This document shows positions 1 through 52,306 of a stretch of DNA of 64,000 nucleotides, in pieces. The translations under genes were made by a program, and so were the position numbers. The notes under the pieces were generated by a model, which was given only the letters and a program-made list of their open reading frames with translations, had not been told where the DNA came from and ran no database searches. Where the stretch lies: sequence record OP870146.1; one strand, written 5' to 3'. How positions within the stretch are numbered: position 1 is the stretch's first letter; each line of letters starts with the position of its first letter. Source of the stretch: Escherichia phage vB_Eco_F27.

Positions 1-2206
1 CCGCTTCCACGGCCTTCATGAATTTAACGATTTGAGCGACCTGTTCTTTGGAAAGAGTACCACGTCGTCCCATGTAGTCTGACACAATATGATAATTGGT
101 TTCGAATTCAATAACCATTTTATCATCATTATCGTAAGCATTATCTTTAAGCTTATCGAAAATTTTAGCACACAATTCTAACTTCTTATTCAGGTCTCGG
201 TTAGTAGCACCTGAGAATCGATTCCATCCCCAACGATTATTTACTGTTGAAAGTTTTGCAAAGTCTTTACTGATTTCTTTGTTCTTAGAGCTAAAATACT
301 TACTAAGGAAGTTAAGCTCTTCATTACGAGTAATATGATTCAAATAAGGCTGTGCTCTACGACTTGGTGATACATACTCATCATAATCCACTTTATCAAT
401 TAGCGTAATATAGTCATTAATTGATTTTTCGAACAAGCATTCTACTTCACCAAGTTTACGAACTTTCTTAGCAATCTGTGGACGGACTACAGTGAACTCT
501 TTAATACCTGACAAATCAGCAATACGGGTCAAGAAATTGGAGTCATAGTTCAACCAACCTTTATCTGCGTCAAGACATTCAGCATTAGAACGATTACGAA
601 CTATAGCATAACCTTGGATTTCATCAGCTTCACTCGCTGGAATAAAGAGATCTTCTGATACCCAAACATCGTTTTCATTCTTAAAGAACCGATGAGCACT
701 TGGGGATTTAGGACGAGGCCCATTAGAACGAGTCTTGACTTCAATCCATGGCTTAACGATTTGTAAAAGCTCTGAAGTCTTGTACATGTTAATGTTGTCG
801 CCATCAAAGATAACTTTAAGGCGTTCCAGAAGTTTCATTGCATCTTCGTCTGTGGGGTCAACGAATAGTACGCTTTTACCAAAACCGCGTGGAACTTTAC
901 CGGTTAATTTAACCTCGTCTTTAGACATTTCAATTGAATTAAGAGCTCGCATTAATGGAACGCGTCCCTTAACGTCATCAATAACAATTTCAACGTTTTT
1001 AATGTTAATGCCAATCAGACTGTTAATTGAAATAGTTGCCGATGAGCTTCCGCTTTCACGAATACGACGAAGTCGTGGGTCTGAAACGATATCATATACA
1101 ACACCAAGGTTGCACCATTCAGGTCCCATTTTAAAACGTTTGTACAACTCGGAATAAGTTAGTTGTTCTTTAGAGTATTTCAGTGATTCAATATTAGACC
1201 CAGCCTTTTCCATGTATTTACGAGCGGTATAGCCAAGAGAATCAATTTCACGGAACACATGACGTGGGTATTTACAATCAATCCATTTCTTAGAATCTTC
1301 AGCGAACAATTTAGCATCGATTTCTGCAACGCGTTTATGGATATTTGCTACTGTACGTTTATCAAACGACAATGCTTCACGAGACGGGGCCACATCTAGT
1401 TCACCCATAGGGAATTTAATATAAGCTGTAGTGCATCGCGTCATCATCCATGTTTGTTCTTTAATAACACTTCCAATTGGATATACAATACCACCATAAA
1501 CAGCCATGATATTACCACGTTCACCCCATGGAGCTTCCTTGGCCAAATATACATCGTCAAATTCTGGGAAGTATTTAATATCTTTAACACCGCGAACTTC
1601 TGCAATATCACCTAGAGGACGCATAACATATGCAATTTCGGATGCGAACTTTTCAAAATCTTCCGGGTTAACCGGTACAACTACTTCTACACCCGTACGG
1701 TCATCAGGACCCATCTTATCTACGAAGGTTGGCTTAATCTGTGGACCACTGTCATCTTGATAAATTACATAACCACGAACTTCACCATTGTGATAAGACG
1801 TAAGGTTAAACGTATCAGTATATGCTAGCGGAGCTTTAGAACCGAGTCCGAATCCACCAATGAAATCGTTACTCGATGTTTTAGTTGAAGCAAAATATGA
1901 GTTATAAATTCCTGGCTCTTCGTCATTACCTCGAATGGTGAAATCGCTCATACCAGGACCAAAGTCTCGAACTACAAAACGTGGGTCTAAACGACCTGGT
2001 GCCTGAACAATAAACTTATCAGTGCAACCATTAAGAATTTGCCCATCGATACAGTTTGTGATTAATTCACGTACACAAGCCAATTCTTTATTTGTATAAA
2101 GGTCATTAGACAAAATCTTATAAACTTTGCTATTGCCTTGAATAGTGAATGCTGTGCTCTTACCGCCTGAACCAATAATCGTTTCTTTAGCCGTTTCAAT
2201 AATCAT
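1..2206 (-). CDS. rIIA: rIIA protein, partial (C-terminus lies beyond window start)
   Basis: Open reverse-strand frame from ATG at 2204-2206 (MIIETAKETIIGSGGKS...DFGPGM...) to the window edge, >735 codons; not in ORF track because it has no in-window stop; position next to gene 39 as in T4. Confidence 0.8.
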   Translation of the reverse strand, partial: MIIETAKETIIGSGGKSTAFTIQGNSKVYKILSNDLYTNKELACVRELITNCIDGQILNGCTDKFIVQAPGRLDPRFVVRDFGPGMSDFTIRGNDEEPGIYNSYFASTKTSSNDFIGGFGLGSKAPLAYTDTFNLTSYHNGEVRGYVIYQDDSGPQIKPTFVDKMGPDDRTGVEVVVPVNPEDFEKFASEIAYVMRPLGDIAEVRGVKDIKYFPEFDDVYLAKEAPWGERGNIMAVYGGIVYPIGSVIKEQTWMMTRCTTAYIKFPMGELDVAPSREALSFDKRTVANIHKRVAEIDAKLFAEDSKKWIDCKYPRHVFREIDSLGYTARKYMEKAGSNIESLKYSKEQLTYSELYKRFKMGPEWCNLGVVYDIVSDPRLRRIRESGSSSATISINSLIGINIKNVEIVIDDVKGRVPLMRALNSIEMSKDEVKLTGKVPRGFGKSVLFVDPTDEDAMKLLERLKVIFDGDNINMYKTSELLQIVKPWIEVKTRSNGPRPKSPSAHRFFKNENDVWVSEDLFIPASEADEIQGYAIVRNRSNAECLDADKGWLNYDSNFLTRIADLSGIKEFTVVRPQIAKKVRKLGEVECLFEKSINDYITLIDKVDYDEYVSPSRRAQPYLNHITRNEELNFLSKYFSSKNKEISKDFAKLSTVNNRWGWNRFSGATNRDLNKKLELCAKIFDKLKDNAYDNDDKMVIEFETNYHIVSDYMGRRGTLSKEQVAQIVKFMKAVEA

Positions 2207-2218
2207 ATTTTTCTCTCA

Positions 2219-2419
2219 TCACAAATTACGTTTAAAAATTTCTGCTACTTCAAGAAGTTCTTCTTTAGTAGCTGTATCGGTTTGTATTTTATATCGAATT
2301 TCTTTAAAGCGTTCTTTAAAGGACTCTGCTGACTCAATATCAAAAAATCTTTGGATAAGCCGGAATTCCCGGAGCACTGCTTTATCAAAAAGTTCCAAGT
2401 CCACGTTATATGTTCTCAT
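2219..2419 (-). CDS. small hypothetical protein (rIIA.1 position)
   Basis: 66-aa ORF directly upstream of rIIA on same strand. Confidence 0.45.
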   Translation of the reverse strand: MRTYNVDLELFDKAVLREFRLIQRFFDIESAESFKERFKEIRYKIQTDTATKEELLEVAEIFKRNL

Positions 2420-2511: not shown

Positions 2512-3612
2512 TTACGCTGTGAAGATTTTATCCCACATCGCAACAACTGCATCTCGATTATACTTCTTCCATACTGCTTCAGCACGTTTAACTCGAGCTT
2601 CGTATGTGTCAGTAAATTCTAATACAGCTTTTGTGTAAAGCGCAACTACTTCTTTCTTAGGAGTAGAGGAATCAATTTCTACACGCACAGTATCTGGGTC
2701 GTATTCAAATGTCGCATGAGGATAATCCTTAAAAACTAACTGGATTACAGGGACACCTTTAGAGATGGCTTCAATAGAACTATTCTCTACCGTACCTGTG
2801 TCAGGACACGTATTAATAAGTGCTTTAGCTGTTTTAAGACGTTCCATGATTTCACTGTGTGGAGCATCAATAATAACAGGATACTTAGCCGGTGGTGCCC
2901 ATTTGCTTGGACAATAACCAATACCATTTTCGCCTAGTGCTTTAATCGCTTCAAGAGCAACATCAGTACGACGCATTTTAGTGTCATAACGTTGTGCACT
3001 AATAATCAGATCAGTCGCCGGAAGAACTTCAGGTTTCTCATTCAAACAAATAACCGGATAATCTTCGGCTTCAAACAACGGATTTGCTCGCCAATAATCA
3101 TAATCAATTTTGTCAGTCAGACCTGAAGTCATATAACAATATTTGCGTTCAAATTCACGGAAGGCTTTAGTAGGAGCATAACTCTTACCGCCATTCTTAT
3201 GAATTTGAATAGTCTGGTCCCAAATTTGAACAATGCCACGAGATACCGGTTCAAATGGTGTTGCCATAAAATTCTTATGAACTTTAGAGAGACCTGCGTC
3301 TTTAATTGCCTGAACGGTTAGTTTAGTCGGTTCCATAGTAACAACAAAATCGTATTCATGGATGCCGGCTAGTTCAACAATCTTACGAGCCATAGTATAA
3401 CTCATACCTAGACTGAATTTTGTCAGATGACCAACAGGATGATGATTAACCTTCCAATCACCAAACGTGTCATTATCAAAACCGATATAATCAATATCGG
3501 CACCAATAGAAACTAAATATTTCAACACATTTAAATGTACTGCTTCAAGACCACCTTGTACACGGTCAGGATTAAATGGGACTGCACGAGATGGGATAAA
3601 CATAACTTTCAT
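2512..3612 (-). CDS. putative glycosyltransferase, GT-B fold (candidate DNA hmC glycosyl/arabinosyl-transferase)
   Basis: 366 aa; N-terminal MKVMFIPSRAVPFNPDRVQGGLEAVHLN and C-terminal ENSSIEAISKGVPVI resemble GT1/GT-B donor-binding motifs; sits between rIIA and gene 39 where T4 has gene 60 and mobA. Confidence 0.55.
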   Translation of the reverse strand: MKVMFIPSRAVPFNPDRVQGGLEAVHLNVLKYLVSIGADIDYIGFDNDTFGDWKVNHHPVGHLTKFSLGMSYTMARKIVELAGIHEYDFVVTMEPTKLTVQAIKDAGLSKVHKNFMATPFEPVSRGIVQIWDQTIQIHKNGGKSYAPTKAFREFERKYCYMTSGLTDKIDYDYWRANPLFEAEDYPVICLNEKPEVLPATDLIISAQRYDTKMRRTDVALEAIKALGENGIGYCPSKWAPPAKYPVIIDAPHSEIMERLKTAKALINTCPDTGTVENSSIEAISKGVPVIQLVFKDYPHATFEYDPDTVRVEIDSSTPKKEVVALYTKAVLEFTDTYEARVKRAEAVWKKYNRDAVVAMWDKIFTA

Positions 3613-6311: not shown

Positions 6312-6337
6312 CTAAAGCAAAAAGGGCCGAAGCCCTT
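6312..6337 (-). terminator. rho-independent terminator (UUCG tetraloop)
   Basis: AAGGGC-UUCG-GCCCUU then UUUUGCUUU. Confidence 0.6.
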
Positions 6338-6761
6338 ATTTAAATTTAATTTTCTGAAGTGCATCAATTGCAGCTAAACGCCCTTGTTCACTTTTAACTG
6401 TAATGACCACATCGCCTGATACGATCACCGAACCATCAACAAATTCTATAGAGCCTTTTTTGAAATCGACAGCTGTATCTGGTTCCGGAACTTCTTCAAA
6501 GAATTTAAATTCTGCACCATAAAGCAGAATATCACCTTGCATACTATGAATAGTTCGGCCATAATCGCCTACGGCTTCTACAGCAATAATCGAAACGCCA
6601 TAACCAATCATCTCTTCCACAATAAAATCTTTGGACAATAAAGTAGTATGCAGATTAGTATTAAGACGTTTACCAGTTGTATTAAGAATTCTCAAGAAAT
6701 TATCTTCTTGTCCTTTGATAATACGATATTTCTTACCAACTTCAAAACCTTTAAAAGCCAT
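6336..6761 (-). CDS. hypothetical protein
   Basis: 141-aa ORF, minus-strand operon context. Confidence 0.5.
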   Translation of the reverse strand: MAFKGFEVGKKYRIIKGQEDNFLRILNTTGKRLNTNLHTTLLSKDFIVEEMIGYGVSIIAVEAVGDYGRTIHSMQGDILLYGAEFKFFEEVPEPDTAVDFKKGSIEFVDGSVIVSGDVVITVKSEQGRLAAIDALQKIKFK

Positions 6762-6948: not shown

Positions 6949-7377
6949 TTATTCCTTAAAATGTGCTTTCAACATTTGATACAAAGACCATGCCTGGTCA
7001 TTATTTTTGATAGTAATCGTCATCACAGGAAATTCAGACAATTCATCAAGTTCACCAGAATCTTGCTCTTCGGACGCTTGATACGGATTTTCAACTTCGT
7101 CAAAGAACTCTGCTTCATTCGTGGAAAGCCAGATAAAGTTTTCATCAAGGATATCACCGCCTGATGCATATCCAACCATGCCAGTAGATGTCACAATTTT
7201 GGTAGGACGTCCAAGATGGTCAACATCTAATACTTTAAATGGTTCCATGCCAAGACGTCGTGCATAAATCCCATTATCAGTGTGGTCTTTAATAAACTCT
7301 TCTTGGGCACGTTTATCTATAAATTGGTACCATGAATTAACGCGGAATTTATTAGCCATTAGTAAGTTTCCTTCCAA
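6949..7377 (-). CDS. hypothetical protein
   Basis: 142-aa ORF; acidic C-terminal half. Confidence 0.5.
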
Positions 7378-7586
7378 TAAGTTGTACCGTTTTCAGTGAT
7401 TTCACGGAAGATACCATAGATAGGCATTTCATCACCGAGTTTTTCGTAAACGTAAACCACTTCTGTGTAGCATAAAAATTCGGTCCAGTTTTTCTGTACA
7501 ACAACTAAATCAGGATTAAACAGAACATCTTCAAACTCATCGATGTTTGAATCAGTAGTTACGTTTTTAATGATTTGACGTTTCAT
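7359..7586 (-). CDS. hypothetical protein
   Basis: ORF with start at MKRQ (7584-7586) preceded by GAGGAG SD and early promoter; upstream 15 codons of listed ORF overlap the promoter. Confidence 0.45.
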
Positions 7587-7610
7587 AATATTCTCCTCTT
7601 GTTTTGATAG

Positions 7611-7644
7611 GTCTATAGTATCATAGACCATAGTTGTTGTACAT
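7611..7644 (-). promoter_or_regulatory. early-type promoter (minus strand)
   Basis: TGTACA-spacer-TACTATAGACC then 5'UTR TATCAAAACAAGAGGAGAA shared with promoter at 55670. Confidence 0.5.
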
Positions 7645-8168
7645 CATTTTAGCAAAATAAAATCAACTTGTTCTGCCAATGAACGTCTAAACATTAATTG
7701 ACAACTTCCGAGGATGAAATCAGGTGCTTCATAGACCGCGATGTAGTATCCTTTAGCTTTCAAGAGTTCAACATCCACCTGGTCATCAAACCATGCATAA
7801 ACCGCGTCAACACTTTCAAATCCAAAATAGAACCCTTGAGCCCAATCTTCGTTCAATTCAAATGTGTGCTCAATTCTATAGTATCTTAAGATATTTTGTT
7901 CAAGGAGTTTGTCTTCATTTACTGTAGGACGATTGGGGACATTATAGTTGTCGCCGTGATGGTAGAAGTTACCTGAGATTATTCCATGTTTATCAAGGAA
8001 CTCCCATGTTTCTTCAGAGTTGTCGGTGCCCGACCAACCGTATGGCGAACGAGGTTCTTTATTCCAAGAGGTTTCCCAAATTCTGACGGCTTTACCGTCT
8101 TCGATAGCAATTCCCGGTAATGATTCACGTTGAGTACAAAAACTACGTTCTACGCGGTAAACTAACAT
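7644..8168 (-). CDS. hypothetical protein
   Basis: 174-aa ORF with own promoter and SD. Confidence 0.5.
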   Translation of the reverse strand: MLVYRVERSFCTQRESLPGIAIEDGKAVRIWETSWNKEPRSPYGWSGTDNSEETWEFLDKHGIISGNFYHHGDNYNVPNRPTVNEDKLLEQNILRYYRIEHTFELNEDWAQGFYFGFESVDAVYAWFDDQVDVELLKAKGYYIAVYEAPDFILGSCQLMFRRSLAEQVDFILLK

Positions 8169-8227: not shown

Positions 8228-8647
8228 TTATGCGAAAGCAGCTGGGCTATATTTTTTAATTTGGAATTCAGGAACTACCATGAACTGTCCGGCGAAAACG
8301 ATGTTATAAAGCTTAACACCATCTTCTACCCAACGGTCGCTAATAAATCCGGCGATTTGCTTAGTTTTCCACGGTGTTCCATCAGTTGCCGCAGCAATAG
8401 TGAATTCATGGTCTTTTTCAACAGAAACTGATCTGCATAATCCCCATTTGAACGCTTTTTCTTCTGGTTCAATGAATTGGCTTGAGACATAACCAATGTT
8501 ACCATCAGCGTCACGAACTTTAACTTCGTTACGTCCAAAAACCGGATCACTCACAGAAAGAACTTCAACCAACTTCCCAGCAACTTTAGAGCGAGAAGCA
8601 ACGGATACATATACATAATCACCTGTAGAGAGATTTACAATATTCAT
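8228..8647 (-). CDS. hypothetical protein, tandem paralog family member 1
   Basis: Shares C-terminal motif GFISDRWVEDGVKLYNIVFAGQF with next two ORFs. Confidence 0.55.
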   Translation of the reverse strand: MNIVNLSTGDYVYVSVASRSKVAGKLVEVLSVSDPVFGRNEVKVRDADGNIGYVSSQFIEPEEKAFKWGLCRSVSVEKDHEFTIAAATDGTPWKTKQIAGFISDRWVEDGVKLYNIVFAGQFMVVPEFQIKKYSPAAFA

Positions 8648-8656
8648 AATAATTCC

Positions 8657-9112
8657 TTAAGCTTTACGAGGAGACACGTAGCGAGTGATTTCAGATTCTT
8701 TAACAACTCGGAAGTCACCTAAGAATACGATATTGTATAACTTTTCACCATCTTCAACCCATTGGTCACTAATGAAGCCACACATAGTATCAGTTTTGCT
8801 TGGATAACCGTATTCATCGATGAAGTCAAATTCTTTATCAGTCTGGAATTCAACACCTTTGCAAAGGGCCCATTTGAACTGTGCATTAGGTTCAGTAGAA
8901 GCAAAATGAGCGCTCACATGAGTTTCCAAAAATTTAGGACTTACGTAAGCGTACTGAGTTTCAGTTTTTCCAGAACTAGGAATGATTCTAACTTTAACTT
9001 CTTTAACACGACCAGTACCATTAGTACGAAGTCCTACCACTTCAACTAGACGACCTGCAGCTTTAGAACGAGATGCAGACGATACACGCTTAATTTCACC
9101 AATAGTAATCAT
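8657..9112 (-). CDS. hypothetical protein, tandem paralog family member 2
   Basis: Start taken at MITIGEIKRVSSASRSK (aligns with paralog 1 N-terminus); GFISDQWVEDGEKLYNIVFLGDFRVV motif. Confidence 0.55.
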   Translation of the reverse strand: MITIGEIKRVSSASRSKAAGRLVEVVGLRTNGTGRVKEVKVRIIPSSGKTETQYAYVSPKFLETHVSAHFASTEPNAQFKWALCKGVEFQTDKEFDFIDEYGYPSKTDTMCGFISDQWVEDGEKLYNIVFLGDFRVVKESEITRYVSPRKA

Positions 9113-9140
9113 AATTTCTCTCTCTTTGTTTAAATTGAAT

Positions 9141-9171
9141 TCACTATACTCCATCCATCCTTGGATGTACA
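9141..9171 (-). promoter_or_regulatory. early-type promoter
   Basis: TGTACA-spacer-TATAGT upstream of paralog 2 start. Confidence 0.45.
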
Positions 9172-9174
9172 ACA

Positions 9175-9669
9175 TTAATTAAGGATATTAACCACAGCAC
9201 TACGTGGAACTACACTAAAATCACCTGCATGAACAACGTTCAGAAGTTCAACACCGTCTTCAATCCACTGGTCGGTTACCCATCCACTCACTGGTCCTGC
9301 AAACGGACGTCGAATTGAAACAGCTTTACACAACAAATCAGTAGGCTCAATAGGCTTAATCAGAGTACCGTACATACAAGCGATATCCATATCAATACAG
9401 ATGTCTTTAACGGGTTCTACTTCTTCAATCAACAGTTCAAAGTCGGTGCTTGGAAGGGCGGTAGTAGAAATTGTACCATATGAATTTTTAATTTCTAAGA
9501 ATAACCAAGGGCCTTCAGCTTGTTTGATGAAGTTAACAATAGTGAAACTATTACCTTGAGTGGCACCTAAAATTTCACAAAACTTTTCATAAGCTCGCAC
9601 TGAAGCACCGTACCAGTTGATTTGTTTTTCGTCTTTCAGGATGTAAGTAGCCGTAGTATTGATATTCAT
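9175..9669 (-). CDS. hypothetical protein, tandem paralog family member 3
   Basis: GWVTDQWIEDGVELLNVVHAGDFSVVP motif related to paralogs 1-2. Confidence 0.55.
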   Translation of the reverse strand: MNINTTATYILKDEKQINWYGASVRAYEKFCEILGATQGNSFTIVNFIKQAEGPWLFLEIKNSYGTISTTALPSTDFELLIEEVEPVKDICIDMDIACMYGTLIKPIEPTDLLCKAVSIRRPFAGPVSGWVTDQWIEDGVELLNVVHAGDFSVVPRSAVVNILN

Positions 9670-9700: not shown

Positions 9701-9730
9701 ATTATACTCCAACCATCCTTGGTTGTAAAC
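9701..9730 (-). promoter_or_regulatory. early promoter with hairpin in spacer
   Basis: GTTTAC aaccaaggatggttggag TATAAT; about 40-bp cassette nearly identical to 52264-52304. Confidence 0.6.
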
Positions 9731-9735
9731 TGATT

Positions 9736-10413
9736 TTATCGCTGTTTTACACTTAACGGGTCAGGATTCTCAGGGACATCTTCAAGGCCAAGCGCATAAC
9801 GCTGAGCATATTTTAACATCAAAATATCTTTAGCACAATCATGAATACTATCATGGGCAACGAATCCTTTTAGCGTACCCATCGGTAATGGACACATACT
9901 TAATCCTCGTGTCAACGAGTAAGCTTCGATTGCCGTACGAATATCGCGTTGAGCCCAGAATTTAACAGGTTCTAATTTATCAGTATCGATCTCTGGTTCA
10001 AGAACACCTTCATCACGATAGAGGTCACGAATCAAATCGACCAAGATCGGGAAGTCAAAGCTCATACCACGGCACCACATCTGTGATTTCCATTGGTCAA
10101 CTTTATTAGCTCGGCAATAGTCTAAAAAGATTTTAATGCCTTCAAGCGTAGTGACATCGTCTTCAGACGGAGCCAAGTTTTTACGCGCTTCTGCCGACTG
10201 TTCTTTCCACCATTTCATAGTGGATTTAGCGAAAACTCGCTTCCCTTTCTGAGAAGCTAAATTAAATTTAATTCGCTTACCTCGTTGAACAAGTTCTTCA
10301 AATGATTCAACAACTTCAGGGTCGGAATTATATGCAATAACCGCAAGGTCAATAACAGCCGCTTTTGATGTATTGCCGAATGTTTCAAAGTCTATAATAA
10401 CATCAGTGCTCAT
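9736..10413 (-). CDS. dexA: exonuclease A (DnaQ-like 3'-5' exonuclease)
   Basis: MSTDVIIDFETFG...AVIDLAVIAY N-terminus matches recalled T4 DexA; synteny upstream of dda. Confidence 0.8.
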   Translation of the reverse strand: MSTDVIIDFETFGNTSKAAVIDLAVIAYNSDPEVVESFEELVQRGKRIKFNLASQKGKRVFAKSTMKWWKEQSAEARKNLAPSEDDVTTLEGIKIFLDYCRANKVDQWKSQMWCRGMSFDFPILVDLIRDLYRDEGVLEPEIDTDKLEPVKFWAQRDIRTAIEAYSLTRGLSMCPLPMGTLKGFVAHDSIHDCAKDILMLKYAQRYALGLEDVPENPDPLSVKQR

Positions 10414-10422
10414 AATTTTCTC

Positions 10423-11736
10423 TCAAATAAAATGGACGTCAAAACGACCACGAGTCGTGCCGACATACAATAACTGTTTAGCTAATTCTGAATCGGCATA
10501 ATGGATACACGGTGTATAAACAAAGGCCGTGTCAACAGACATACCCTGGGCCTTATGGAAGGTTGATACAGGTAGTGCCTTCACCTTAGTGAACATACGT
10601 TTAGCATCCCAGAACTCGCTCCATGGAGCTTTACCACCTTTATTCCAGAATTTGTATGTTTCTGCGGTCTTAGCCAAAAACAAATTGAATTTATAAAGCT
10701 CTTCTTCAGAAGAAATAACCTTTATATCTTCGCGGATGTATTCTTCATCATCCCCATATGTTTCTACTGTAAGATTCCAGTATCGTATCATATATTCGCC
10801 TGAAACACCGCGTGCTTTAACGAATGTAGACGTTTCTACAGCATCTCGAATACGAACGAATTGCCCGTTATTGAAAAGCATTTCGGTCATATTTTTGCCA
10901 TCTAGTTTATATGTCTTAGTAAATGGCTCTTGTAGAACAATGACTTCGTCTTTAATAAATGGTTTTTCTGTTTCAAGAAGTTTTCGGCGAATAATTGAAT
11001 TTAACTTATCCACCGACTTATTTGTGAATGCCATCATTCGATTTTCGAAAAGGTCTTCAGGAGTTTTAACGACATTAAAATAGTTCATCATATACGATTT
11101 AAGGTCTGTATATCCGTGAACACCGTGTCCATCAACTACTTTATCGTAAATCCATTTGCCATTACGAATATCAGTCGCAACATCAATAATTGGTGCATTG
11201 CTACGTTTAACTTCTGTAAGGTCGCATTGCACGAAGTCTTTGTGAGTGAAGAAAGGACTTAGATACGCAGTTGATTCGCCTGGGTCCACCGGTCGAATCT
11301 GACATCGGTCGCCAATTCCAATTACTGTACACCATTTAGGGATACTAGCTAACATTATTTTAAACAGAGGACGGTCGCACATTGACGCTTCATCAAATAA
11401 CAGTACACGACACAAGGCTAAGTCGGGAACCTTTTTCTGTTCAAACAATACGTTTTCTTCGTATGTAGTTGGGTTGATTTTAAGAATGCTATGAATAGTC
11501 GATGCTTCTTGACCTGCAAGTTTGCTTAGAACCTTTTTAGCAGCATGTGTAGGGGCTGCTAAAATAATACCTGATTCTCCAGAAGAAATAAGGGCTTCAA
11601 CGATGAATCTAGTAAGGGTTGTTTTACCTGTACCAGCAGGTCCATTAATAGTTACGTGATGTTTCTTTTCTTTAATAGCTTTCATAACAACATTGAAGGC
11701 GTTTTTCTGGCCTTCGGTCAAATCATCAAATGTCAT
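10423..11736 (-). CDS. dda: Dda DNA helicase (SF1B)
   Basis: 437 aa, MTFDDLTEGQKNAFNVVMKAIKEKKHHVTINGPAGTGKTT Walker A; near-identical N-terminus to recalled T4 Dda. Confidence 0.92.
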   Translation of the reverse strand: MTFDDLTEGQKNAFNVVMKAIKEKKHHVTINGPAGTGKTTLTRFIVEALISSGESGIILAAPTHAAKKVLSKLAGQEASTIHSILKINPTTYEENVLFEQKKVPDLALCRVLLFDEASMCDRPLFKIMLASIPKWCTVIGIGDRCQIRPVDPGESTAYLSPFFTHKDFVQCDLTEVKRSNAPIIDVATDIRNGKWIYDKVVDGHGVHGYTDLKSYMMNYFNVVKTPEDLFENRMMAFTNKSVDKLNSIIRRKLLETEKPFIKDEVIVLQEPFTKTYKLDGKNMTEMLFNNGQFVRIRDAVETSTFVKARGVSGEYMIRYWNLTVETYGDDEEYIREDIKVISSEEELYKFNLFLAKTAETYKFWNKGGKAPWSEFWDAKRMFTKVKALPVSTFHKAQGMSVDTAFVYTPCIHYADSELAKQLLYVGTTRGRFDVHFI

Positions 11737-50994: not shown

Positions 50995-51299
50995 TATAAT
51001 GTTCTCTCAAATTTGTGGAAGCATTTACGGCATTTCAATTTCAAGTTATCAGTGGTCCAGTTAACCAGTTGGACTTGGATAGTTCCACATTCTGGGCATG
51101 GATGTTTTGCTGCCGATTTGGCAGCATTTTCACGTCGTTCAACCATTTTCATTATTTCGTTCCATGCCGGAGGAACGAACTCTTCTTCACCGTGGATTTT
51201 ATCTCGCTGAACAAATTCAATCTTTGAACTATCGCCAATAAACTTAACCAAGCGGTGATTAGTGTTCATATCAATATCCTCTAAAAGACGTAGTTTCAT
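50994..51299 (-). CDS. zinc-ribbon protein
   Basis: CPEC ... CRKC pair. Confidence 0.5.
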   Translation of the reverse strand: MKLRLLEDIDMNTNHRLVKFIGDSSKIEFVQRDKIHGEEEFVPPAWNEIMKMVERRENAAKSAAKHPCPECGTIQVQLVNWTTDNLKLKCRKCFHKFERTL

Positions 51300-52249
51300 T
51301 ATAATACCTCAATGGCATTTCGTAAACCATCCGCTTTTGCATTCAGAGCTTTTAATGATTTAGTTTGTTCTGCAATTTGGGCTTCGACTTCTTTCAGACG
51401 AGATTTGAGATATTCGCGTTCTTCAGCCATGATATCGACCTTTTCTGCTTTAGGTTCTTTAATAAGCTTAGGTTTATACGTATTAGGGTTCTTCAGCTTA
51501 ATTCGGGTACGAGAACTGAATAACATTGAACCGTTATCTTCGGTTTCGTCGAACATTTCAACAACATCCATAGTCTCTAACAATGTAATAAGTTTATAAG
51601 ACAACGAACGAATAGTTTTGTTGTGCTTATTAATTTCTTCGGCTTTCATGGTACCGAGATTACGTGAGTAATAATAAGGAACCTGGATATCAATTGATAA
51701 TGATGCGTTACCATTACCGGTTGGTTTGAATACTGCAGTAACCCAATCTTTAACATGAACTTTATTTGTACGACCATCACCGCCTGTGAATAATTTACGA
51801 GAATGTTTAAAAAGCATATTCACTTGTTTATTGAATTCACAAGCAAATTTATCAGCAAATTTAGTTTCAGGAATGGTAGTTAACCAATCAGCCAAATGAG
51901 TCTTTTTAACATCGTTAATAATAGTGAATTCAACCAAATCGGTTTTAGACGTCACAGATTTAATAAAACTCGGCTTCATAAAGTTTTTAATGTTATCGCG
52001 AGCTACAGTAGAAGATAATAAACGAGAACGTTTGAACCATTGAAGCAACGTCCCTAACGAATGAGAATACGCATTTTGAGTATCTTTACAGATATGATTT
52101 TCTTGGCCTATGTATGTACCAAAATCGCGAAGAATACCACTTACCACATCTCGGTGTGGAACATCAAATCCTAGTGCACCAGAAGCGCGCTGAGCATGAA
52201 CGTTAGCGATAAGACCTGCAAAATAATCAATGTAATGTGAACGTGTCAT
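51299..52249 (-). CDS. hypothetical protein with C-terminal coiled coil
   Basis: 316-aa ORF with own promoter. Confidence 0.5.
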   Translation of the reverse strand: MTRSHYIDYFAGLIANVHAQRASGALGFDVPHRDVVSGILRDFGTYIGQENHICKDTQNAYSHSLGTLLQWFKRSRLLSSTVARDNIKNFMKPSFIKSVTSKTDLVEFTIINDVKKTHLADWLTTIPETKFADKFACEFNKQVNMLFKHSRKLFTGGDGRTNKVHVKDWVTAVFKPTGNGNASLSIDIQVPYYYSRNLGTMKAEEINKHNKTIRSLSYKLITLLETMDVVEMFDETEDNGSMLFSSRTRIKLKNPNTYKPKLIKEPKAEKVDIMAEEREYLKSRLKEVEAQIAEQTKSLKALNAKADGLRNAIEVL

Positions 52250-52277: not shown

Positions 52278-52306
52278 ATTATACTCCAACCATCCTTGGT
52301 TGTACA
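52278..52306 (-). promoter_or_regulatory. early promoter with hairpin in spacer (copy of 9701-9730 cassette)
   Basis: TGTACA aaccaaggatggttggag TATAAT; overlaps stop codon of upstream gene. Confidence 0.55.

What the first reader, a model, noticed from the sequence alone, without database searches (positions are those of the whole stretch)
8228..9669. Tandem triplet of divergent paralogs with a conserved C-terminal WVEDG...VVP motif
Three consecutive genes (139, 151 and 164 aa) share G(F/W)(I/V)(S/T)D(R/Q)W(V/I)EDG(V/E)(K/E)L(Y/L)N(I/V)V...G(Q/D)F.VVP while their N-termini have diverged. Two of the three have their own early promoter. Tandem diversified paralogs in a phage early region are typical of host-takeover or anti-defense families.
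Basis: seen in the sequence. Interest (0 to 1): 0.5.

Follow-up and report, generated by a model that had tools for sequence, protein, structure and literature searches.

The report
Known MotB/MotB.1 phage gene trio
The three neighbouring genes are real relatives of each other, but they are the already described motB.1, motB and second motB genes of an RB69-like T4-type phage, a family whose founding member coats DNA and disturbs the host's H-NS gene silencing, so the finding is ordinary.

Summary
Three consecutive minus-strand genes (9175-9669, 8657-9112, 8228-8647; 164, 151 and 139 aa) share a C-terminal domain far beyond chance: pairwise BLASTP E 1e-32 to 3e-10, profile-profile E 4e-30. All three pass Pfam's curated cut-off for PF17613 (motB).

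It is not new. The window is a Mosigvirus (RB69/PhAPEC2-like, 97-98% identical). The genes are motB.1, motB and a second motB copy. Patterson-West et al. 2021 (PMC7827196) already described the shared C-terminal domain with different N-terminal domains. They also stated that RB69 carries two motB plus one motB.1.

"N-termini have diverged" is only half right. The 151- and 139-aa proteins are full-length paralogs (44% identity). Only the 164-aa protein has an unrelated N-terminal domain, the LSm-like type shared with GoF.

By homology, the 151-aa protein is the basic, non-specific DNA-coating, H-NS-perturbing MotB. The other two are acidic, and their functions are unknown.

Two by-products:
- The T4 reference motB.1 (119 aa) is truncated inside this domain by an extra G that is absent from all 11 independent T4 resequencings, which encode 143 aa.

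The parts
9175..9669 (-). motB.1-type gene (164 aa): LSm/SH3-like N-terminal domain, a DMDIACMYGTLIKP linker motif, and a MotB-type C-terminal domain. Acidic (pI 4.5).
   Evidence: ORF. PHROG 2333 E 7e-83 over the full length, and PF17613 36.1 bits over residues 84-159. 38.7% identical to T4 MotB.1 (tblastn E 3e-24). PhAPEC2 ortholog is annotated 'similar to MotB.1'. AF2 pLDDT 80.3. pI.
8657..9112 (-). motB ortholog (151 aa; the ORF is open upstream to an ATG at 9175, which would give 172 aa). KOW/SH3-like N-terminal domain, disordered linker, shared C-terminal domain. Basic (pI 8.5; N-terminal domain plus linker pI 10.2).
   Evidence: PF17613 130.5 bits over residues 1-146, and PHROG 1671 E 1e-64. 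47% identical to T4 MotB over 156 aa, E 1e-38. RB69p011 is annotated motB. AF2 model has two beta domains with a disordered linker at 66-81. pI.
8228..8647 (-). Second, shorter motB paralog (139 aa). Same two-domain plan, but it lacks the RIIPSSGKTETQ hairpin segment and most of the linker. Near-neutral to acidic (pI 5.8; N-terminal domain pI 4.85). Starts 9 nt after the stop of the preceding gene, so it is probably co-transcribed.
   Evidence: PF17613 76.3 bits, PHROG 1671 E 1e-51. 44% identical to the 151-aa paralog. 38.5% identical to T4 MotB. Alignment gaps. pI. Homolog clusters at 84-94% identity are nearly all from Mosigvirus-type genomes.
9178..9345 (-). Segment encoding the shared C-terminal domain of the 164-aa protein (residues 109-164).
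   Evidence: Alignment A5. hhalign E 3.9e-30. AF2 strands 116-163 with pLDDT above 90.
8660..8878 (-). Segment encoding the shared C-terminal domain of the 151-aa protein (residues 79-151).
   Evidence: Alignment A5. AF2 shows five strands at 86-146 with a 3-10 turn between strands 4 and 5.
8231..8452 (-). Segment encoding the shared C-terminal domain of the 139-aa protein (residues 66-139).
   Evidence: Alignment A5, 52% identical to the C-terminal domain of the 151-aa protein.
9701..9729 (-). Early-promoter-like site TTTACA-17-TATAAT upstream of the motB.1-type gene.
   Evidence: 11 of 12 consensus matches. Part of a 27-nt cassette repeated three times in the window, against 0 expected. Not tested experimentally.
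9143..9171 (-). Early-promoter-like site TGTACA-17-TATAGT upstream of the 151-aa motB gene.
   Evidence: 9 of 12 matches. Same cassette as above. T4 has GTTTACA-17-TATAAT at the equivalent motB.1/motB junction (sequence).

Best explanation
The locus is the motB.1 - motB - motB' cluster of a Mosigvirus (RB69-like T4-type phage). All three are early genes of the MotB family (Pfam PF17613).

Shown here:
- The three proteins share a roughly 55-75-residue all-beta C-terminal domain.
- In the 151- and 139-aa proteins this domain is fused to a KOW/SH3-like N-terminal barrel.
- In the 164-aa protein it is fused to a non-homologous LSm/SH3-like barrel of the GoF/Frd.2 type.

Inferred by homology with T4 MotB:
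- The basic 151-aa protein is made in quantity early in infection.
- It binds DNA tightly without sequence specificity, coats and compacts DNA, and changes how H-NS sits on DNA.
- Through this it derepresses H-NS-silenced genes and improves phage fitness.

Inferred from composition and architecture:
- The 139-aa copy has lost the basic hairpin and linker, and the 164-aa MotB.1-type protein is acidic. Both are unlikely to be simple redundant DNA coaters.
- They probably keep whatever the conserved C-terminal domain does (partner binding or self/hetero-association) while differing in what the N-terminal domain binds.

The tandem arrangement arose by duplication and domain shuffling within Tevenvirinae. 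Recombinant single-copy hybrids exist in other phages.
For: Family membership:
- Pfam motB above the curated cut-off for all three, and PHROG 1671/2333 hits.
- 47%, 38.5% and 38.7% identity to T4 MotB, MotB and MotB.1 respectively.

Genome identity and synteny:
- 97-98% DNA identity to Mosigvirus genomes.
- Same gene order and annotations in PhAPEC2 and RB69.
- Position between dexA and cef as in T4.

Domain relationships:
- C-terminal domain homology E 3.9e-30, while the N-terminal domains are unrelated.
- AF2 gives two-domain beta models.

Charge: pI 8.5, 5.8 and 4.5, against 9.2 for T4 MotB.

Selection: purifying selection on all three.

Distribution:
- 771 phage records with 1498 places, i.e. 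2-3 copies per genome.
- Only 29 representative clusters among 1.84 billion proteins.

Hybrids: P0148 and P0149 combine one paralog's N-terminal domain with the other's C-terminal domain, as single motB genes in T4-ordered loci.

Literature:
- MotB DNA binding, toxicity, H-NS/StpA copurification and fitness effect (PMC6070864).
- Four categories sharing the C-terminal domain, and RB69 with two motB plus one motB.1 (PMC7827196, section 3.2).
- MotB.1 N-terminal LSm-like fold shared with GoF and Frd.2 (PMC12152347, section 2.2).
Against: - No experiment exists for any Mosigvirus copy. Function is transferred from a 47%-identical T4 protein.
- Which MotB domain binds DNA is unknown (PMC7827196).
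- Deleting motB.1 in T4 gave no phenotype, and MotB.1 had no effect in an RNA reporter assay (PMC12152347). However, that work reports a 13.8-kDa protein, which is the size of the truncated 119-aa form.
- The idea that the C-terminal domain is an interaction module is inference from sequence conservation (the acidic/aromatic D-Q-W-V-E-D-G turn) and from its fusion to unrelated N-terminal domains. No complex was modelled or measured.
Confidence: 0.85

Rival explanations
1. Plain dosage or redundancy. All three proteins are interchangeable non-specific DNA-coating proteins, the shared C-terminal domain is the DNA-binding (OB-fold) element, and the duplication simply raises the amount of coating protein.
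For: HHpred-based prediction that the MotB C-terminal domain is a cold-shock-type OB-fold able to bind nucleic acid (PMC7827196, section 3.1). The C-terminal domain is the most conserved part of all three. MotB is needed at high stoichiometry, about 2.4 monomers per bp for full protection (PMC7827196, section 3.3).
Confidence: 0.12
2. Anti-defence family. The diversified paralogs each inhibit a different bacterial immune system, as the first reader suggested as one option.
For: Early expression, location in a dispensable region, copy-number variation and domain shuffling between phages are features often seen in counter-defence genes. H-NS itself acts as a xenogeneic silencer, so MotB's effect on H-NS could be viewed as counter-defence in a broad sense (PMC7827196, discussion).
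Against: No literature link between MotB/MotB.1 and any dedicated defence system turned up in three searches. The conserved part is nearly invariant across genera rather than rapidly diversifying. pN/pS is 0.04-0.23, with no sign of positive selection.
Confidence: 0.05
3. One of the copies, the short 139-aa one, is a decaying duplicate without function.
For: It is the shortest copy, has lost two segments relative to MotB, scores lowest of the two motB-type copies against Pfam, and has no promoter of its own.
Against: The ORF is intact in the window, PhAPEC2 and RB69 with pN/pS 0.04-0.13, the lowest of the three. It is conserved at 84-94% in many clusters and hundreds of contigs. Its C-terminal domain type is the only MotB C-terminal domain in some single-copy phages.
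Confidence: 0.03

Closest known systems
Bacteriophage T4 MotB (NP_049626, 162 aa; Pfam PF17613; PHROG 1671)
   Same: The 151-aa protein aligns end to end with it at 47% identity. It has the same N-terminal V-S-x-x-S-R-S-K-A-A-G KOW-like signature and the same C-terminal domain. It also has a basic pI, early-promoter context and a position upstream of cef. The 139-aa protein has the same plan at 38.5% identity.
   Different: The window has two motB-type genes instead of one. The second copy lacks the basic hairpin and most of the linker and is not basic. Gene order also differs: the motB.2-like gene lies downstream of the motB copies here, not between dexA and motB.1 as in T4.
T4 MotB.1 (119 aa in the reference record NP_049627; 143 aa in all resequenced T4 genomes; PHROG 2333) and the GoF/Frd.2 LSm-like family (Kim et al. 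2025, PMC12152347)
   Same: The 164-aa protein matches PHROG 2333 over its full length. It has the same N-terminal domain type, the same PTDLLCKAV...GWVTDQWIEDGVELLNVVHAG C-terminal domain, and the same position immediately upstream of motB.
   Different: It carries an extra ~20-residue insert (DICIDMDIACMYGTLIKPIE) between the domains that the T4 protein lacks. That insert occurs in other family members. Unlike the T4 reference record, it is not frameshifted.
RB69 ORFs RB69p010, p011 (motB), p012 and p013 (motB.1)
   Same: Same genus, same gene order and the same triplet. This is the published example of 'two motB plus one motB.1' (PMC7827196).
   Different: In the RB69 reference record, motB.1 is split by two single-base insertions into a 132-aa ORF and a 29-aa ORF. 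In the window and in PhAPEC2 it is one intact 164-aa gene.
Small SH3-like beta-barrel nucleic-acid/chromatin binders (NusG/Spt5 KOW, Tudor, PWWP, chromo, BAH-core)
   Different: Sequence identity is only 10-20% and there is no detectable sequence homology. No aromatic cage or KOW Gly-Lys signature was tested. This is a resemblance of fold only.

Membership tests
MotB family (Pfam PF17613 'Modifier of transcription') | Whole-protein score above Pfam's curated gathering cut-off (25 bits) | tested here: met
   76.3 bits (139 aa), 130.5 bits (151 aa) and 36.1 bits (164 aa, C-terminal half only).
MotB family (Pfam PF17613 'Modifier of transcription') | Full-length two-domain plan of T4 MotB: KOW/SH3-like N-terminal domain, linker, conserved C-terminal domain | tested here: met
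   Met for the 151- and 139-aa proteins: profile coverage 2-157 of 162 for the 151-aa protein, full-length PHROG 1671 matches for both, the A3 alignment and the AF2 model. Not met for the 164-aa protein, whose N-terminal domain is unrelated (hhalign probability 0.1%). That protein belongs to the MotB.1 branch, not to MotB proper.
MotB family (Pfam PF17613 'Modifier of transcription') | Genomic position in the early dda-dexA-...-cef-goF block of a Tevenvirinae genome | tested here: met
   dda 10423-11736, dexA 9736-10413, cef 7359-7631 and goF-like 6949-7377 flank the trio. Same layout in PhAPEC2, RB69 and T4.
MotB family (Pfam PF17613 'Modifier of transcription') | Tight non-specific DNA binding, toxicity, association with H-NS/StpA on DNA | not testable with these tools
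   Known only for T4 MotB (PMC6070864, PMC7827196). Indirect: the 151-aa protein is basic like T4 MotB (pI 8.5 vs 9.2), while the 139- and 164-aa proteins are not.
MotB.1 subfamily (PHROG 2333; 'Category 2' of Patterson-West 2021) | Full-length match to the subfamily profile, with a MotB.1-type C-terminal core (PTDLLCKAV...GWVTDQWIEDGVELLNVVHAG) | tested here: met
   PHROG 2333 E 7.1e-83, residues 1-164. The core motif is identical to those of P0003-P0011.
MotB.1 subfamily (PHROG 2333; 'Category 2' of Patterson-West 2021) | N-terminal LSm-like / SH3-topology five-stranded barrel shared with GoF and Frd.2 | tested here: inconclusive
OB-fold (cold-shock DNA-binding type) assignment of the shared C-terminal domain | Five-stranded barrel with a helix between strands 3 and 4, and structural neighbours that are OB-fold proteins | tested here: not met

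The most novel reading that the evidence does not exclude
The shared C-terminal domain may be a Tudor/SH3-like association module rather than an OB-fold DNA binder. Through it, MotB, the second MotB and MotB.1 would co-assemble or bind one common host partner. A DNA-coating KOW-type protein would then recruit an acidic variant and an LSm-like, possibly RNA-binding, protein into one nucleoprotein. If so, the published null results for T4 MotB.1 would have been obtained with a reference-derived 119-aa protein that lacks half of this module.
Probability: 0.15. Interest if true: 0.45.

Novelty: already known. Interest (0 to 1): 0.12.

Why it matters
The finding itself matters little. It rediscovers a named family and an arrangement already published for RB69.

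Two by-products have some practical value for people working on T4 early proteins.

1. The true T4 MotB.1 is very probably 143 aa with a complete MotB-type C-terminal domain. The 119-aa form in the reference record and in derived databases ends in the middle of the most conserved motif. The published biochemistry reports a 13.8-kDa protein, the size of this truncated form.

2. Structure prediction suggests that MotB is a tandem of two SH3-like barrels. This shifts the question of which surface binds DNA and which mediates cooperativity or interplay with H-NS.

Tried and rejected
- **Sequence search of the 151-aa protein against all PDB chains:** no hit even at E 10, so there is no solved relative.
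- **Extra copies or remnants of the motif elsewhere in the window (tblastn, E up to 10):** none beyond the three genes.
- **Internal duplication (N-terminal vs C-terminal domain) or relatedness of the two N-terminal domain types, by hhalign:** probabilities 0.1-2.6%, rejected at the sequence level.
- **Deep profile search of the C-terminal domain against 1.84 billion representatives, hoping for occurrences outside T4-type phages or fusions to informative domains:** only 29 hits. About 25 are short phage-type proteins of 100-250 aa, and three long multi-stretch hits at E 4e-5 to 3e-4 are probably spurious. No functional hint came from this.
- **Programmed frameshift as the explanation for the T4 motB.1 truncation:** rejected. 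The extra G occurs only in the two copies of the reference record.
- **Son et al. 2021 (NAR, MotB compacts DNA):** could not be read. It is cited only by its title as listed in PMC12152347.

Full report
**1. What is in the sequence**

ORF listing shows three consecutive minus-strand ORFs exactly at the reported coordinates:
- 9175-9669 (164 aa);
- 8657-9175 (172 aa as the longest ORF; 151 aa from the ATG at 9112);
- 8228-8647 (139 aa).

They lie downstream of dda (10423-11736) and dexA (9736-10413). They lie upstream of a motB.2-like gene (7644-8168), cef (7359-7631) and two goF-like genes.

One detail differs: the terminal P of 'VVP' is K in the 151-aa protein.

**2. Is it more than chance?**

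Yes.
- BLASTP gives 44% identity over the whole length between the 139- and 151-aa proteins (E 1e-32).
- The C-terminal ~36-79 residues of the 164-aa protein match the other two at E 2e-11 and 3e-10.
- Profile-profile comparison of the C-terminal domain alignments gives 99.8% probability, E 3.9e-30.
- The two N-terminal domain types show no relationship (0.1%), and neither does N-terminal versus C-terminal domain.
- No fourth copy is present in the window.
- pN/pS between the window, PhAPEC2 and RB69 is 0.04-0.23 for all three genes, so all are maintained coding genes.

The phrase 'N-termini have diverged' needs correcting: two of the proteins are full-length paralogs, and the third carries a different N-terminal module.

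**3. What it is**

All three proteins pass the curated threshold of Pfam PF17613 (motB).
- In PHROGs the 151- and 139-aa proteins are 'MotB-like transcriptional regulator' (phrog_1671, E 1e-64 and 1e-51).
- The 164-aa protein is phrog_2333 (E 7e-83).

The window is 97-98% identical over this 5.5-kb block to Mosigvirus genomes such as PhAPEC2, BEU50 and SF. Their annotation, and that of RB69, names the genes as MotB.1-like, motB and a second MotB-like gene.

Against T4:
- the 151-aa protein is 47% identical to MotB;
- the 139-aa protein is 38.5% identical to MotB;
- the 164-aa protein is 38.7% identical to MotB.1.

**4. What was already known**

Patterson-West et al. 2021 (PMC7827196, section 3.2) aligned 102 phage homologs. 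They defined four categories that share the C-terminal domain but differ in the N-terminal domain. [quoted passage not shown]

The finding is therefore a rediscovery.

**5. Function, by homology**

T4 MotB has these properties:
- it is an abundant early protein;
- it is toxic when expressed in E. coli;
- it binds modified and unmodified DNA tightly and non-specifically;
- it copurifies with H-NS and StpA only in the presence of DNA;
- it overrides the H-NS footprint at proV;
- it up-regulates 75 host genes, a third of which are H-NS-repressed;
- it improves phage fitness (PMC6070864; PMC7827196, sections 3.3-3.4 and discussion).

A later paper, known to me only by its title in the reference list of PMC12152347, reports that it compacts host and phage DNA.

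I transfer this role to the 151-aa protein, which is basic like T4 MotB (pI 8.5; N-terminal domain plus linker pI 10.2).

The 139-aa copy lacks the RIIPSSGKTETQ segment and most of the linker and has pI 5.8. The MotB.1-type protein has pI 4.5. These two are thus unlikely to be equivalent electrostatic DNA coaters.

The nearly invariant core of the shared domain (G-[FWY]-[IV]-[ST]-D-Q-W-[VI]-E-[DN]-G-x-x-L-x-N-[IV]-V) is acidic and aromatic. In the models it forms the hairpin between strands 2 and 3. That core is fused to at least three unrelated N-terminal modules. This suggests a common partner-binding or association function. This step is inference only.

**6. Structure**

The AF2 model of the 151-aa protein (24-sequence alignment, pLDDT 77.8) has two beta domains (residues 7-63 and 86-146) joined by a disordered linker at 66-81. 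The AF2 model of the 164-aa protein has pLDDT 80.3, with the C-terminal domain above 90.

In both models the C-terminal domain has five strands with a 3-10 turn between strands 4 and 5, which is the SH3-like order.

Many top hits are common to the two models, which share only the C-terminal domain. However, both N-terminal domains are also small barrels, and the output gives no residue ranges, so the assignment is probable, not proven. This disagrees with the HHpred-based OB-fold proposal in PMC7827196.

Foldseek against viral models finds only MotB-type proteins of T4-like phages of Escherichia, Klebsiella, Yersinia, Serratia, Enterobacter and Pseudomonas.

**7. Distribution**

- tblastn of the C-terminal domain finds 771 phage records with 1498 places, typically 2 per genome. 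Mosigvirus and some Tequatrovirus genomes have 3.
- A profile of the three C-terminal domains against 1.84 billion representative proteins finds just 29 clusters, so the family is narrow.
- Members show shuffling. Examples are a MotB-type N-terminal domain with a MotB.1-type C-terminal domain (P0058, P0169, P0172), and longer forms with duplicated N-terminal modules (P0031, P0171).
- P0148 and P0149 are hybrids of one paralog's N-terminal domain with the other's C-terminal domain. They sit as the only motB gene in T4-ordered loci. This shows recombination between copies.

**8. Promoters**

- TTTACA-17-TATAAT (9729-9701) precedes the 164-aa gene.
- TGTACA-17-TATAGT (9171-9143) precedes the 151-aa gene.
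- The 139-aa gene follows after 9 nt with no site of its own.

The scan as a whole is not enriched over shuffles. However, the two sites share an exact 27-nt cassette that occurs a third time at 52278-52304 and never in shuffles. T4 has GTTTACA-17-TATAAT at the equivalent motB.1/motB junction.

**9. By-product: the T4 and RB69 reference records**

T4 MotB.1 in NC_000866/AF158101 is 119 aa and ends ...GWVTDQWIGRWR*. An extra G (ATTGGAAGATGG instead of ATTGAAGATGG) shifts the frame in the middle of the conserved motif. The remainder, EDGVELLNVVHAGEYSVVPRSAVVAILN*, is intact in the next frame.

Only the two reference records carry the extra G. Eleven independent T4 records, plus RB55 and RB59, have the single-G form. 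T4T and MT984581 annotate a 432-nt (143-aa) gene. The 143-aa protein P0011 is seen on 256 contigs. A sequencing error, or a change private to the sequenced stock, is the simplest explanation.

The RB69 reference has two single-base insertions in the same gene relative to the window and PhAPEC2. These split it into RB69p013 and the 29-aa RB69p012, which is the 'Category 3' peptide of PMC7827196.

Kim et al. report MotB.1 as 13.8 kDa. That is the size of the 119-aa form. The words 'frameshift' and 'truncat' do not occur in that paper.

**10. Verdict**

The novelty is nil. Interest is low.

Noticed in passing
L002 (T4 NC_000866) 2143-2340, minus strand; compare window 9178-9290: The T4 reference motB.1 (119 aa) is frameshifted by one extra G inside the conserved GWVTDQWIEDG motif, and the rest of the domain is intact in the next frame. 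Only the two reference records carry the extra G. Eleven resequenced T4 genomes, RB55 and RB59 encode a 143-aa protein. Published MotB.1 work reports a 13.8-kDa protein, the size of the 119-aa form.
   Followed up: yes
L003 (RB69 NC_004928) 3377-3535, minus strand: The RB69 reference has two single-base insertions in motB.1 relative to the window and PhAPEC2. These split it into RB69p013 and the 29-aa RB69p012, which explains the orphan 29-aa 'Category 3' peptide of Patterson-West 2021.
   Followed up: partly
window 9143-9169, 9701-9727 and 52278-52304, minus strand: An exact 27-nt early-promoter-like cassette, TACA(A/T)CCAAGGATGG(T/A)TGGAGTATA(A/G)T, occurs three times in the window against 0 expected in shuffles. 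The third copy lies just upstream of a 316-aa ORF (51299-52249) unrelated to MotB.
   Followed up: partly
window 9173-9177, minus strand: The stop codon of the 164-aa gene overlaps an ATG (TAATG) that opens a 172-aa version of the next gene. Metagenome gene callers use this long start (P0148, P0151). However, the 21 extra codons cover the promoter-like site, and T4 MotB starts at the position of the 151-aa form. The true start is unresolved.
   Followed up: no
window 7644-8168, minus strand: The motB.2-like gene (PHROG 1106; Pfam PF26820 in related contigs) lies downstream of the motB copies here. In T4 it lies between dexA and motB.1. T4's dexA.1 and dexA.2 are absent between dda and dexA in the window. 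The gene is not homologous to MotB despite its name.
   Followed up: no
window 6336-6761 and 6949-7377, minus strand: This is a second paralog pair in the same block. Both proteins match PHROG 622 (GoF-like). The first also hits the N-terminal part of the MotB.1 PHROG 2333 weakly (E 0.0014), consistent with the published GoF/MotB.1/Frd.2 LSm-like family.
   Followed up: partly
window 9370-9410 (residues ~88-106 of the 164-aa protein); P0031, P0035, P0039, P0046, P0058, P0172-P0182: A short motif, D-[MFT]-D-[IV]-[AV]-x-x-Y-x-x-x-[IVL]-x-P, recurs in family members either between the domains or at the very N-terminus. T4 MotB.1 lacks it. It has low pLDDT with a short helix in the model, so it may be a linear interaction motif.
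   Followed up: no
L004 1373-1894; L005 3001-3492; L006 2199-2690: Metagenomic T4-ordered loci carry a single motB that is a hybrid: the N-terminal domain of the 151-aa or T4 type joined to the C-terminal domain of the 139-aa type, with the junction near FKWxLC. This indicates recombination between motB paralogs or alleles. It is preceded by a 181-aa 'Category 4' MotB.1-like gene.
   Followed up: partly
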